A stretch of DNA of 64,000 nucleotides from Escherichia coli (lineage in GTDB: Bacteria; Pseudomonadota; Gammaproteobacteria; Enterobacterales; Enterobacteriaceae). The stretch lies in the NCBI RefSeq assembly GCF_024223415.1, contig NZ_CP100500.1, one strand, 5' to 3'. The number at the start of each line of letters is the position of its first letter. Positions within the stretch are counted from its first letter, which is position 1. Position numbers: made by a program. Positions 1 through 3,000 of this stretch are shown one piece after another.

Positions 1-3000
1 CAGCTTACGCCGTGATGGGAATTGTCCGGCCTTTTCCAGGCGGTAGCGGCATGAGCGGCTAAGCCCTGTTAGCTTTTCGCATTCTTTTTCACGTATAAAC
101 CGATCAGTGCTTAACACTATTGCCCCCTTTCGTTTCTTAAAGAGTTATTTCGTGTTCTATTGCGTTGGTATGTGTCTGATTGTGTCAGGGTGATTCAGAG
201 TTGGCAAATGTTGGTGGCGGGTATTTTACAGAAACGGGGTTATTTTAATAAAAAACATTTTAATTCAGTATTATGCAAAGGCATAAAATCTCGTTTTATG
301 CCTTTTTTCTCACTATTTAAAGCGTTATTCGCTAATGTATAAAAAACCAGTTGAGCATTAAAAATCAGCAACTTATAAATCTGTATACTTTTTGGCCTCT
401 TGTTCGTGGTTGTTTCACGTTGTTGCGTATTGTTTCACGTTGTATCTGTGCACTTATCCAGTATGCGCATACTGAAAAAACACGAAAAAAATTATTTTCT
501 TCTGGTTACTGGTAGCGTGGTTACGTTTTCATGTGCTCCCGCCAGTATCTCCAACCGCTCCACCCACATATCCAGCGCATTGCGTTTCGCATCCAGATAA
601 CGGGAATGATTATAAACTCGCTGCATTCCTGGCATCTGGTGGCCTGTAAGCTGCTCCACGACGTGAGGATCCACGCCTAAATCGTTCAGCATCGTTGTAA
701 AGGTGCGCCGGATGTCATGCAGTGACCAGTGAGGGTGTTTAAGCCTCCTGTGCGCTAATCTTCCATACTGCGATACGCTGGCCTCCTGTTTCACTTCCCC
801 CAGCAATAAGCCCGTGTGCCTGTTCTGCTCCACCAGCTGCGTGACGAACGGCAGTATCGCTTCCGGTATGGGCCGGAATATGGCTACCTTCGTTTTGCTG
901 TGCTCCTTCGGAACGGTCCATAGCATTTCGGTAAAATCCCACTCCCCGATCTCCGATAGCCTCAGTTCTACTGTCCTGGCTCCGAAGACAATCAGGAGGC
1001 GGATTAGTGCGACGTAGTAAGGGGAAAATATTTTTTTGTCCAGTGCCTGCAATAATTCGCCAAGTTCTTTGTTACTTAAGACACGCTGACTTATATCCGG
1101 TTTTTTCCCAACGTCAGCAACACTCATATCATCAAGAACGTTGCTGATTGCATAGCGCCGCTTCCGGCAGAACTTAAGCGCCTGTTTGCATGTCTGTAGC
1201 AGGAATCCGGCGGAAACAGGGGCTTGCTTTGCCACCCGATCAAAACAGGCCAGCCAGTGCCGTAGCTCGCATTTATCCAGCGGCATAGCACCAATCTGCT
1301 GTATTACGTGATTATTAAGTCGCCTTTTCAGGGCGATATAATCCACGCGGTTTTCCTTTACGTAATACTCAAGCCAGTAGGTAAGCGCATCGCCAACCGT
1401 TACAGGCTTTAACGCTTCCTGTACGGTGTAATTCATCTCATGACGTGGATTTTTCCCCTCAGCCAGCCATGCGCGGCACTGTGCGGCTTTTTCCCTGGCT
1501 GCTTTCAGGCTCAGATCAGGATAATTTCCCAGCTTAATCCGTTCCGGTCGTGCTCCCCTTCCCGTTCCGGCCCTGTAGGTGAAATACCAGGTTAAAAGGC
1601 CGCTGGTTGAATGCCTGACGGTCAGGTTTCCACCGTCATTAAGAAAGACTGTTTTTTGGGCGGGTGTGCCGTTGATTTTCCTTAGCTGTGTATCGCTCAG
1701 TTTGTTAAGTGCTCTGCGCATAATTTTGATTCCGGTCATCACAATTAACTACACCATTAACTACACCGATCGTTGCACAAAGGGCTACAACGTGAAACAA
1801 GCTGGAACAAGAAAAATCACAAATTTGTTTATAATCAAAAACATAATGCACAACCTGAAACATTATGAAACGGCAAAAAACACTAATTGATAAAAGGGAT
1901 ATTTAAATAACGTCACCGGTTACCGCGATGATTTACTGGCTAACCGTGCGATTGTGAAACACGGTAATTTCGCACTGTTAACACCAGACGGTCTGGTAAA
2001 AAATATTATTCCGGGCTTTGAAAATTGTGACGCGACAATCCTCTCCACGCCAAAGCTGGGTGCCTCTTTTGTTGATTATCTGGTCACACTGCATCAAAAC
2101 GGTGGCAACCAACAGGGCTTCGGTGGCGAAGGCATTGAAACGTTCCTGTATGTGATCTCTGGAAATATCACTGCCAAAGCCGAAGGCAAAACATTTGCCT
2201 TAAGCGAAGGTGGCTATCTTTATTGCCCGCCAGGCTCCTTAATGACGTTTGTTAACGCCCAGGCCGAAGACAGCCAAATCTTTTTATATAAGCGCCGCTA
2301 TGTTCCGGTAGAAGGCCATGCACCGTGGCTGGTTTCTGGCAATGCCAGCGAACTGGAACGCATTCACTATGAAGGTATGGATGATGTGATCCTGCTGGAT
2401 TTTCTGCCCAAAGAGTTAGGTTTTGATATGAACATGCATATCCTCTCTTTTGCACCAGGTGCCAGCCATGGTTATATCGAAACACACGTTCAGGAACACG
2501 GTGCCTATATTCTTTCCGGTCAGGGGGTTTATAACCTCGACAATAACTGGATCCCGGTGAAAAAAGGCGATTACATCTTTATGGGCGCTTATTCTTTACA
2601 GGCTGGTTATGGCGTAGGGCGTGGTGAAGCGTTCAGCTATATTTACTCGAAAGATTGCAACCGCGACGTAGAGATTTAAGTCATACCACTCGCCTGATTA
2701 TTTTTAGCTATGTTGGATTTTGCCACGGTTTATACCGTGGCTTTTTTTGTAACATTGCCTGATGCGCTTCGCTTATCAGGCCTACATGATCTCTGCAATA
2801 TATAGAATTTGCGCGATTTTCAGGAAGGATATAGTGCTCATGCAGCATCCGGCATGAGCACTGCGCTCTTATACGAAATAAATCGCATCCGCTTTAAAGG
2901 TAAGGGTCAGTTTTTAATTCCCTGACCTATTTTAATGGCGCAGGCAATATTTCGCGCGCTGTTGAAGAGATTGGTTTCACCGCTGGCGAGCACTTCGGCT

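What the first reader, a model, noticed from the sequence alone, without database searches (positions are those of the whole stretch)
1743..1956. Integrase-bearing element abuts allE: the expected allE ATG is replaced by AAG, and allC/allD are absent upstream
The in-frame sequence upstream of the GTG at 1954 still encodes the usual AllE N-terminus (GYLNNVTGYRDDLLANRAIV), but the codon where the initiator Met should be is AAG, preceded by TAA. Upstream of that lies non-backbone DNA: a tandem 12-bp repeat (attaactacacc x2 at 1744-1767) and the start of a P4-type integrase gene, in place of the allC-allD genes that normally precede allE. This suggests a mobile element inserted at, or replaced, the 5-prime side of allE, leaving allE without its native start and promoter.
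Basis: partly seen in the sequence, partly recalled or inferred. Interest (0 to 1): 0.5.

Follow-up and report, generated by a model that had tools for sequence, protein, structure and literature searches.

The report
Phage satellite inserted at allE start
A small phage-parasite island (a PICI-type satellite) has integrated by site-specific recombination exactly on the start codon of the E. coli allantoin gene allE, changing ATG to AAG and cutting allE off from its operon; this is an ordinary mobile-element insertion at a rarely used site that I did not find described.

Summary
At 1894-1896 AAG (after TAA) sits where E. coli has the allE ATG. Left of it lies foreign DNA with a 409-aa tyrosine integrase (492-1721, minus strand) and two tandem ATTAACTACACC repeats (1744-1767).

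Window 1-1895 is the right end of a phage-inducible chromosomal island (PICI or capsid-forming PICI). Its integrase belongs to the EcCICFT073/EcCIEDL933 clade. The attB site overlaps the allE start: empty site ATAAATGGGATAT|TTAAAT, attL ATAAATGGGATAT|ATCTAT, attR ATAAAAGGGATAT|TTAAAT. I infer strand exchange within the shared GGGATAT. The T of the ATG lies just left of it and is replaced by the element's A, so ATG->AAG follows from the recombination.

The same junction occurs in 12 of 5426 complete E. coli genomes. In all five I examined end to end, allD-allC lie intact on the far side of a roughly 10.5-14.8-kb satellite. The near-isogenic strain KV7 has an empty site with ATG. So allC and allD are most likely just left of the window, not deleted.

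The GTG at 1954 is also in KV7, so it predates the insertion. allE has probably lost its ribosome-binding site, start codon and operon promoter, reversibly on excision.

This is a known kind of element at a site absent from the 2018 PICI site list. Interest is low.

The parts
1..1895 (-). Right-hand end of an integrated PICI-family phage satellite. The rest of the element lies left of the window.
   Evidence: 97-98% identical DNA ends at 1894/1895 in genomes where the element sits at another site (roxA). Identity to the near-isogenic empty-site strain KV7 starts at 1890. Gene order is int-alpA-...-DUF4222-primase in the identical draft contig L007.
1..117 (-). 5' part of alpA (AlpA/excisionase-type regulator), cut by the window start.
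   Evidence: L007 11605-11793 maps to window 117 and beyond. PF05930; phrog_2790, excisionase and transcriptional regulator.
410..443 (-). Two copies of the 14-bp motif ACAACGTGAAACAA, between the int 3' end and alpA.
   Evidence: Three exact copies in the window against 0.03 expected by chance. The third copy is in the P arm.
492..1721 (-). Integrase, 409 aa, a tyrosine recombinase with an N-terminal arm-DNA-binding domain (alternative GTG start at 1742).
   Evidence: PF13356 + PF00589; phrog_1 integrase, E 5e-70. Candidate catalytic motifs read from the sequence: R249, K276/278, H335-x-x-R338, H361, Y370. 93-97% aa identity to the roxA-site integrases, including those of CFT073 and O157:H7.
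1744..1767 (+). Two tandem 12-bp repeats, ATTAACTACACC; candidate arm-type integrase-binding sites in the P arm.
   Evidence: Exact copies occur only here in the window. The same tandem pair, in the same orientation, lies in the opposite (P') arm of complete relatives (L001 10731-10754 and 21744-21767).
1787..1800 (+). 14-bp motif ACAACGTGAAACAA in the P arm; candidate AlpA/Xis site (inferred).
   Evidence: Also present in the P' arm of AR_0085 (L001 10774-10787).
1888..1895 (+). TGATAAAA, the last 8 bp of the element; inferred core-type half-site C. Its final A (1895) replaces the T of the allE ATG.
   Evidence: The P arm ends in (T/G)ATAAAA in all 19 clade members compared (one has ATAAAG), whatever the insertion site. 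In the roxA-type attP it forms a perfect 8-bp inverted repeat around a 7-bp spacer.
1896..1902 (+). GGGATAT, the 7-bp identity block between attP and attB; inferred overlap (crossover) region, equal to allE codon 1 position 3 through codon 3.
   Evidence: Present at both attL and attR in three complete genomes and once in the empty sites of K-12 and KV7.
1894..2679 (+). allE coding body without a start codon (AAG at 1894-1896; possible internal starts CTG 1936 and GTG 1954).
   Evidence: 260 of 261 codons retained. Only E12D and Y142H differ from K-12 besides M1K. The 1954 ORF scores 333 bits against TIGR03214 ureidoglycine aminohydrolase. PGAP calls the CTG at the equivalent of 1936 in relatives.

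Best explanation
Window 1-1895 is the integrase end (attR side) of a phage-inducible chromosomal island. It may be the classical or the capsid-forming kind; the packaging half lies outside the window.

Its integrase belongs to the EcCICFT073/EcCIEDL933 clade. It recombined the element's attP (...TGATAAAA-GGGATAT-ATCTATAA...) with a chromosomal attB (...TCATAAAT-GGGATAT-TTAAATAA...) that spans the allE start codon. Strand exchange is inferred to occur within the shared 7-bp GGGATAT. Everything left of it in attR therefore comes from the element. That includes the A that replaces the T of the ATG, and the AT-rich DNA that replaces the GGAG ribosome-binding site.

The ATG GGA TAT stays at attL. 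There it is fused to element DNA as a 12-codon remnant ORF directly after an intact allC.

allE is now roughly 10.5-15 kb from the allD promoter. Its neighbours in the element (int, alpA) are transcribed away from it, and it has no start codon. It is therefore most probably silent, while its coding body remains intact. Precise Int/AlpA-mediated excision would restore ATG.

What is shown: the junction sequences, recurrence at the identical base in independent genomes, element identity, intact allD-allC in relatives, and the empty site in a near-isogenic strain. What is inferred: the exact cleavage positions, the roles of the 12-bp and 14-bp repeats, loss of AllE expression, and the state of the unseen left end in this genome.
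For: Junctions:
- Empty site in K-12 and KV7...cagaaaTAAggagtcATAAATGGGATATTTAAATAAC.
- attL in AR_0085, TUM1886 and 2012C-4502: ...ggagt(c/t)ATAAATGGGATAT|ATCTATAACTT.
- attR in those genomes and in the window...aatt/atttGATAAAAGGGATAT|TTAAATAAC.

Recurrence:
- 12 of 5426 complete genomes carry the junction, and 5316 have the intact allC-allE junction.
- The eight allE-site lysogens I compared carry 6 distinct integrase proteins (89-98% aa identity to the window's).
- Those read in full carry at least three different cargo sets, in different chromosomal backgrounds.
- This indicates repeated site-specific events.

Element identity:
- int (PF13356 + PF00589), alpA, DUF4222 and a D5_N primase in the identical contig L007.
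- Relatives add SSB, PerC, capsid and decoration genes, or the full HK97 capsid/protease/portal/HNH/TerS/TerL set, with no tail or lysis genes annotated.

Clade and sites:
- The same P arm ends ...ATAAAA and is then followed by a site-specific 7-mer at roxA-phoQ, tqsA, abgR and ilvL.
- These match published PICI cores GGACATATTT (ycfD-phoQ), ATAACAGCA (tqsA) and ...ATCGTGA (lysR-smrA) (PMC6092414 Table S1).

Timing:
- KV7 has 15 nucleotide differences apart from the start-codon base over 58 kb. It has the empty site, and it already has GTG at codon 21.

Expression:
- allD-allE is a single AllS-dependent operon (PMC12535856).
- A simple scan found no sigma-70-like site on the + strand between 1400 and 1977.
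Against: - The left end of the element and allC are not in the window. The only identical public contig breaks inside the satellite's primase gene. Intact allD-allC in this genome is therefore inferred from five relatives and from KV7.
- Cleavage positions within GGGATAT are not demonstrated. The identity block could be read as ATAAAWGGGATAT.
- The core half-sites are only 5-6 of 8 matches to each other at the allE site.
- No expression data exist. The intact allE body (2 amino-acid changes against K-12 besides M1K) is also compatible with continued use from an internal start.
- No excised attP form was found in IMG/VR, but the positive control for the common roxA type was also empty, so that test is uninformative.
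Confidence: 0.85

Rival explanations
1. One reading: the element's arrival was accompanied by deletion or replacement of allC and allD, so this genome lacks them.
For: No allC or allD anywhere in the 64-kb window. The left end of the element is unseen. Some lysogens do show secondary damage in the cluster: fdrA/ylbE in AR_0085 and an internal stop in allC in E300010.
Against: Five of five fully read genomes with this junction have allD-allC directly beyond the element. The junctions form a clean attL/attR pair in the three where they were read. KV7, near-isogenic, has allDCE intact. Site-specific integration does not delete flanking DNA.
Confidence: 0.04
2. allE remains functional in the lysogen. 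It would be translated from an internal start (CTG 1936 as PGAP annotates, or GTG 1954) and transcribed from a cryptic promoter in the P arm, giving a protein 14-20 residues shorter.
For: The allE body is intact, with 12 synonymous and only 2 non-start amino-acid differences from K-12. The ORF from 1954 still matches positions 10-248 of the 249-position family model TIGR03214. Distant homologues with solved structures align only from residues 13-21.
Against: There is no Shine-Dalgarno-like sequence before 1936 or 1954. No promoter-like site was found on the + strand upstream. GTG 1954 is not compensatory, because it is also in the empty-site strain KV7 and is absent (GTT) from two other lysogens. 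The insertion looks recent, so an intact body says little. The N-terminal 20 residues are conserved as far as Enterococcus.
Confidence: 0.15
3. The DNA is a fixed, decayed remnant of an island (integrase end only) and not a complete, mobile satellite.
For: Only about 5.8 kb of the element is known for this strain (window plus L007). One relative (E300010) is visibly degraded, with an internal stop in SSB and a shortened packaging module.
Against: int is full length with its candidate catalytic motifs, and alpA is intact. DUF4222 and the primase (as far as the contig end) are open. attR is identical in form to that of complete relatives. The insertion is recent relative to KV7.
Confidence: 0.1

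Closest known systems
EcCICFT073, the classical Gram-negative PICI of E. coli CFT073 (Fillol-Salom et al. 2018, PMC6092414)
   Same: Same integrase clade: 93.6% aa identity to the CFT073 Int. Same P-arm sequence up to ...TGATAAAA, and the same int-alpA-...-DUF4222-primase gene order. The AR_0085 element at the allE site has the same capsid/decoration cargo.
   Different: EcCICFT073 integrates at AAATATGTCC between phoQ and roxA (ycfD), which is intergenic. The element here uses GGGATAT on the allE start codon. The 7-bp overlap plus the next 25 bp of the P' arm differ. The allC/allE site is not among the att sites in Table S1 of that paper.
EcCIEDL933 and other capsid-forming PICIs (cf-PICI; Alqurainy et al., bioRxiv 10.1101/2022.09.08.507074; SatelliteFinder paper PMC10085698)
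   Same: TUM1886, 2012C-4502 and AST240 carry, at this same allE site, HK97 capsid, protease, portal, head-tail connector, HNH, TerS and TerL genes with no tail or lysis genes annotated. The O157:H7 integrase at roxA is 93.4% identical in amino acids to the window's.
   Different: Whether the window's own element is capsid-forming is unknown, because its packaging half lies outside the window. The preprint says cf-PICIs use six attB sites, but its Table S2 was not available to me.
Satellite phage P4 and P4-like elements
   Same: Integrase architecture (arm-binding domain plus tyrosine recombinase domain), an AlpA-type regulator and a D5-type primase.
   Different: P4 integrates into the 3' end of a tRNA gene. 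There is no tRNA gene anywhere in the window. No Sid, Psu or Delta genes are annotated in the complete relatives. The 2018 paper treats PICIs and P4 as distinct.
Integrative elements that interrupt a gene and restore it on excision ('active lysogeny' or regulated gene integrity, e.g. the Listeria comK prophage, from my own knowledge; helper-embedded PICIs, PMC10111431)
   Same: The integration site lies inside a functional gene signal. From the attL/attR sequences, precise excision would regenerate the intact ATG.
   Different: Nothing links satellite excision to a need for allantoin. Only the start codon, ribosome-binding site and operon linkage are lost, not part of the coding body. No evidence of regulated excision was obtained.

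Membership tests
Gram-negative PICI (Fillol-Salom 2018 criteria) | Conserved module order: int, AlpA-type regulator, primase/replication genes. | tested here: met
   int (PF13356 + PF00589), alpA (PF05930), DUF4222 and a D5_N/DUF5906 primase, in that order, in the identical contig L007.
Gram-negative PICI (Fillol-Salom 2018 criteria) | Size about 8-15 kb with no phage tail or lysis genes. | tested here: inconclusive
   Met in the complete relatives at the same site: 11,246, 14,821 and 14,193 bp measured, and no tail or lysis genes annotated. Not testable for the window's own element, whose left part is outside the window and beyond the draft contig's end.
Gram-negative PICI (Fillol-Salom 2018 criteria) | A specific att site flanked by a direct repeat, not used by prophages. 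| tested here: met
   The 13-bp repeat ATAAAWGGGATAT lies at both ends. Insertion is at the identical base in every genome read. All five occupants read in full are PICI or cf-PICI types. Of the 21 genomes with a broken allC-allE junction, 12 are of this type; the other 9 were not inspected.
Gram-negative PICI (Fillol-Salom 2018 criteria) | Induction by a helper phage, with replication and packaging into phage-derived particles. | not testable with these tools
   This needs an experiment. Searches for the excised attP form in IMG/VR found nothing, but the positive control also found nothing.
Capsid-forming PICI (cf-PICI) | Own capsid, protease, portal, head-tail connector/adaptor, HNH, TerS and TerL genes. 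| tested here: inconclusive
   Present in TUM1886, 2012C-4502 and AST240 at this site. Absent from AR_0085, the closest integrase relative. Unknown for the window's element.
Tyrosine recombinase with arm-binding domain (lambda/P4-type integrase) | Arm-DNA-binding N-terminal domain plus a catalytic domain with the R-K-HxxR-H-Y residues. | tested here: met
   PF13356 and PF00589. Candidate R249, K276/278, H335/R338, H361 and Y370 read from the sequence by motif; they were not aligned to a reference integrase. Repeated 12-bp candidate arm sites occur in both arms.
P4-like satellite | Integration into a tRNA gene, and Sid/Psu/Delta capsid-size and transactivation genes. | tested here: not met
   No tRNA gene in the window, and attB is the allC-allE junction. 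No such genes are annotated in the complete relatives. The second point rests on annotation only.

The most novel reading that the evidence does not exclude
One PICI integrase lineage is retargeted between at least five chromosomal sites (roxA-phoQ, allC-allE, tqsA, abgR, ilvL) by exchanging a 32-bp attP cassette, made of the 7-bp overlap plus the next 25 bp of the P' arm, and not by changing the protein.

No amino-acid position separates the six allE-type integrases from the six roxA-type integrases, and some allE-type integrases are closer to roxA-type ones than to each other.

The allE-type cassette would define an attB not in the 2018 site list. That site switches allE off on integration and back on at excision. 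Lysogens may then lose further allantoin genes: allW Q336* here, fdrA/ylbE in AR_0085 and allC in E300010.
Probability: 0.2. Interest if true: 0.4.

Novelty: new member of a known kind. Interest (0 to 1): 0.2.

Why it matters
For annotation, allE in such strains should be treated as start-less and operon-orphaned. It should not be re-called from a CTG or GTG start, and the apparent loss of allC and allD is only a window-edge effect.

For satellite biology, the result adds a rarely used integration site (12 of 5426 complete genomes) for the common EcCICFT073/EcCIEDL933 integrase clade. It gives base-level attB, attL and attR sequences. It also suggests that the 26-bp 'att core' listed for EcCIDI14 in 2018 is an arm-type repeat lying about 130 bp from the crossover on the integrase side.

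The physiological effect is modest. It would be a reversible knock-out of one step of anaerobic allantoin use.

Tried and rejected
1. Integrase residues 314 and 323 looked diagnostic for allE-site versus roxA-site elements in a 4-versus-4 sample. With 8 versus 6 sequences plus other sites, no diagnostic position remained. Rejected.

2. The GTG at 1954 as a compensatory new start. Rejected, because the empty-site near-isogenic strain KV7 already has GTG and two other lysogens have GTT.

3. An outward promoter in the P arm driving allE. The simple sigma-70 scan found none on the + strand between 1400 and 1977.

4. Recovering the element's left end for this genome.
   - An exact-protein look-up of the integrase found one 23.5-kb draft contig, which ends in the satellite's primase gene.
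   - A look-up with KV7's AllC returned only empty-site contexts and one IS-disrupted allE.

5. The excised attP form in IMG/VR. There were no hits for the allE-type attP, for the attR junction, or for the roxA-type attP used as a positive control, so the test is uninformative. The phage record collection has no match to window 1-1895.

6. Literature. No paper in the library links PICIs with allC, allE or ylbA. Table S1 of the 2018 paper lacks the site. The cf-PICI preprint's Table S2 is not held.

7. Rfam on 1-3000 found nothing in 1743-1956. The only matches were sRNA hits downstream of allE.

8. SNP density. Enrichment of differences from KV7 in the allantoin cluster is not supported: about 0.30 per kb inside against 0.27 per kb outside. 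The changes inside the cluster are, however, all non-synonymous or regulatory.
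Full report
**Observation**

- TAA lies at 1891-1893 and AAG at 1894-1896. The frame then reads GYLNNVTGYRDDLLANRAIV up to the GTG at 1954 and continues as a complete AllE body to 2679.
- In K-12 the corresponding codon is ATG, and allE is 786 nt (261 aa) from it.
- The solved structure 1RC6 covers residues 1-261, and the Enterococcus homologue 1SEF aligns from residue 1. So the ATG is the native start. K-12 has GTT, not GTG, at codon 21.
- ATTAACTACACC occurs exactly twice in the 64-kb window, in tandem at 1744-1767.
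- A 409-aa integrase (PF13356 arm-binding domain plus PF00589) is encoded on the minus strand at 492-1721.

**What the foreign DNA is**

An exact-protein look-up of the integrase found a draft contig (GCA_900482235.1) that is 100% identical to window 1-11721. It extends 3.9 kb further left. That stretch shows alpA, several small ORFs, a DUF4222 gene and a D5_N primase, and the contig ends there.

Twelve of 5426 complete E. coli genomes have the same integrase-allE junction. I read five of them end to end.
- AR_0085 carries an 11.2-kb element like EcCICFT073, with RepA helicase, SSB, PerC, capsid and decoration genes.
- TUM1886, 2012C-4502 and AST240 carry about 14-kb capsid-forming PICIs, with HK97 capsid, protease, portal, connector, HNH, TerS and TerL genes.
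- E300010 carries a degraded version.
- None has tail or lysis genes annotated.

This is the architecture of Gram-negative PICIs and cf-PICIs (PMC6092414, PMC10085698, bioRxiv 10.1101/2022.09.08.507074). The window has no tRNA gene, so this is not a P4-type tRNA insertion.

**Where allC and allD are**

In all five genomes allD-allC lie intact in position immediately beyond the far end of the element. Strain KV7 has 15 nucleotide differences apart from the start-codon base over 58 kb, and it has allD-allC-allE uninterrupted with ATG. The window simply begins inside the element. For this genome, an intact allDC on the left is therefore an inference, but a strong one.

**Anatomy of the junction**

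| Site | Sequence |
|---|---|
| Empty site (K-12, KV7) | cagaaaTAAggagtcATAAATGGGATAT-TTAAATAAC |
| attL (three genomes) | ggagt(c/t)ATAAATGGGATAT-ATCTATAACTTATTTTC... |
| attR (window and relatives) | ...AACACTA(A/T)TTGATAAAAGGGATAT-TTAAATAAC |

The element is thus flanked by ATAAAWGGGATAT.
- The mismatch (T at attL, A at attR) places the crossover to its right, inside GGGATAT.
- The T of the ATG lies just left of that block, and the native GGAG ribosome-binding site lies further left. Both are replaced by element DNA at attR.
- ATG->AAG is therefore a built-in consequence of integration at this site. All eight allE-site junctions inspected read AAG.
- At attL, ATG GGA TAT is fused to element DNA and forms a 12-codon ORF behind the intact allC stop codon.

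**The integrase clade and its other sites**

The int-P-arm module occurs in 1092 of 5426 genomes. Sampling them shows the same P arm ending in ...ATAAAA, followed by a site-specific 7-mer:

| Site | 7-mer |
|---|---|
| allE | GGGATAT |
| phoQ-roxA | TATGTCC |
| tqsA | TGCTGTT |
| abgR | TCACGAT |
| ilvL | a fifth sequence |

- The roxA, tqsA and abgR cores are the reverse complements of the published PICI att cores GGACATATTT, ATAACAGCA and ...ATCGTGA.
- In the roxA type, attP reads TGATAAAA-TATGTCC-TTTTATCA, a perfect 8-bp inverted repeat around 7 bp. This is the classic tyrosine-recombinase core layout and is the basis for my proposal of a 7-bp overlap. At the allE site the half-sites are less symmetrical.
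- In the three attP types I could reconstruct, the site-specific part is the 7-mer plus exactly 25 bp of the P' arm. After that the arms are again homologous, starting at ATTGA....

**No integrase residue tracks the site**

A first comparison suggested residues 314 and 323 were diagnostic. With more sequences no position separates allE-type from roxA-type integrases. The window's integrase is closer to roxA-type integrases (93-97% aa identity) than to some allE-type ones (89-90%). Site choice therefore seems to reside in attP and not in the protein. This is an inference.

**Other sites in the arm**

- The tandem 12-bp repeat is present, in the same orientation, in both arms of complete elements. 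It is part of a 75-nt, 81%-identical arm repeat. With the integrase's arm-binding domain, arm-type Int sites are the likely role.
- The 2018 supplement lists the reverse complement of this repeat as the 'att core' of EcCIDI14. In that element the crossover lies about 130 bp away on the integrase side, inside ISEc45.
- A second motif, ACAACGTGRAACAA, occurs once in each arm and twice upstream of alpA. That is 3 copies in the window against 0.03 expected. AlpA/Xis binding is my guess.

**Consequence for allE**

allD-allC-allE form one AllS-dependent operon. After integration:
- allE is separated from that promoter by the satellite;
- its neighbours in the element (int, alpA) are transcribed away from it;
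- it has no ribosome-binding site and no start codon;
- a simple scan finds no sigma-70-like site on the + strand upstream.

PGAP rescues the gene with a CTG start at the equivalent of 1936. The window's GTG at 1954 is a pre-existing polymorphism shared with KV7. The coding body is intact, with E12D and Y142H against K-12, which fits a recent insertion. I conclude that allE is probably silent and would be restored by precise excision. This is not shown.

**Comparison with what is known, and novelty**

This is a standard PICI or cf-PICI with a known integrase clade. The allC-allE site is not among the att sites in Table S1 of the 2018 paper, and no paper in the searchable library links PICIs to allC, allE or ylbA. 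It may be one of the six cf-PICI attB sites in a table I could not read. I therefore rate it a new member of a known kind, of low interest.

**Limits**

- The left end is unseen for this genome.
- Cleavage positions, binding-site roles and allE expression are inferred.
- The attP searches in viral collections were uninformative.

Noticed in passing
window 7300-7302 (minus strand, allW/ybbW): The allantoin transporter gene allW carries a nonsense mutation, CAG->TAG at codon 336 of 484. AR_0085 and the near-isogenic strain KV7 both have CAG.
   Followed up: yes
window 8633 (glxR), 12063 (gcl-allR spacer), 12361 (allR): Besides allW, the other three differences from KV7 inside the allantoin cluster are glxR L241Q, allR P190L, and a base change next to the palindrome TTGGAAAAATTTTCCAA upstream of gcl. 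None is synonymous. Outside the cluster the differences are a mix of synonymous and non-synonymous. Density is not enriched (0.30 against 0.27 per kb).
   Followed up: partly
L001 6349-8014 (AR_0085); L030 6734-7969 (E300010): Other allE-site lysogens also carry lesions in the allantoin cluster: fdrA/ylbE fused pseudogenes in AR_0085 and an internal stop in allC in E300010. This could reflect relaxed selection after the allE knock-out. The base rate in non-lysogens was not measured.
   Followed up: no
L026 11432-12660 (CP058012.1): In another E. coli genome, an IS3-family transposase gene sits between allC and glxK and no allE gene is called there. I did not check how much allE DNA remains. 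This looks like an independent disruption of the same gene.
   Followed up: no
window 61690-64000: A second integrase (347 aa, 61759-62802, minus strand), a 99-aa phage-type regulator (phrog_147, 62842-63141, minus strand) and a 166-aa ORF lie just right of glsA. Similarity to KV7 ends at about 61.69 kb, so this is another mobile element cut by the window end.
   Followed up: partly
window 410-443 and 1787-1800; L001 10774-10787: The 14-bp motif ACAACGTGRAACAA occurs once in each att arm and twice upstream of alpA (0.03 copies expected by chance). It is a possible AlpA/excisionase binding site.
   Followed up: partly
L011 (clone D i14) 2430-2600 and 12640-13250: The 'att site core' published for EcCIDI14 (CGGTGTAGTTAATGGTGTAGTTAATT) is the arm repeat, not the crossover. 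The element sits in ISEc45 with only TCAC shared at the junction. The same integrase protein occurs at abgR, where the 7-mer TCACGAT matches fully. The IS insertion therefore looks like a secondary-site event.
   Followed up: partly
L018 and L019 2418-3512: Clade members at the tqsA site leave tqsA annotated as missing its N-terminus. Damage to the 5' end of the target gene is therefore not unique to the allE site.
   Followed up: no
window 36679-57456 (minus strand), 36666, about 20810, 17055: The giant adhesin gene siiEA is an intact 6925-codon ORF here, whereas KV7 has an internal stop. Relative to KV7 the window also has a 1-nt deletion near the start of the type I secretion ABC gene, a 38-bp indel in the rhs core gene, and a 1-nt deletion that splits the small gene downstream of rhs.
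   Followed up: partly
window 2686-2752 and 2778-2820 (minus strand): Rfam matches above the gathering score to the sRNAs STnc480 (87.6 bits) and ES036 (38.1 bits) in the allE-glxK spacer.
   Followed up: no
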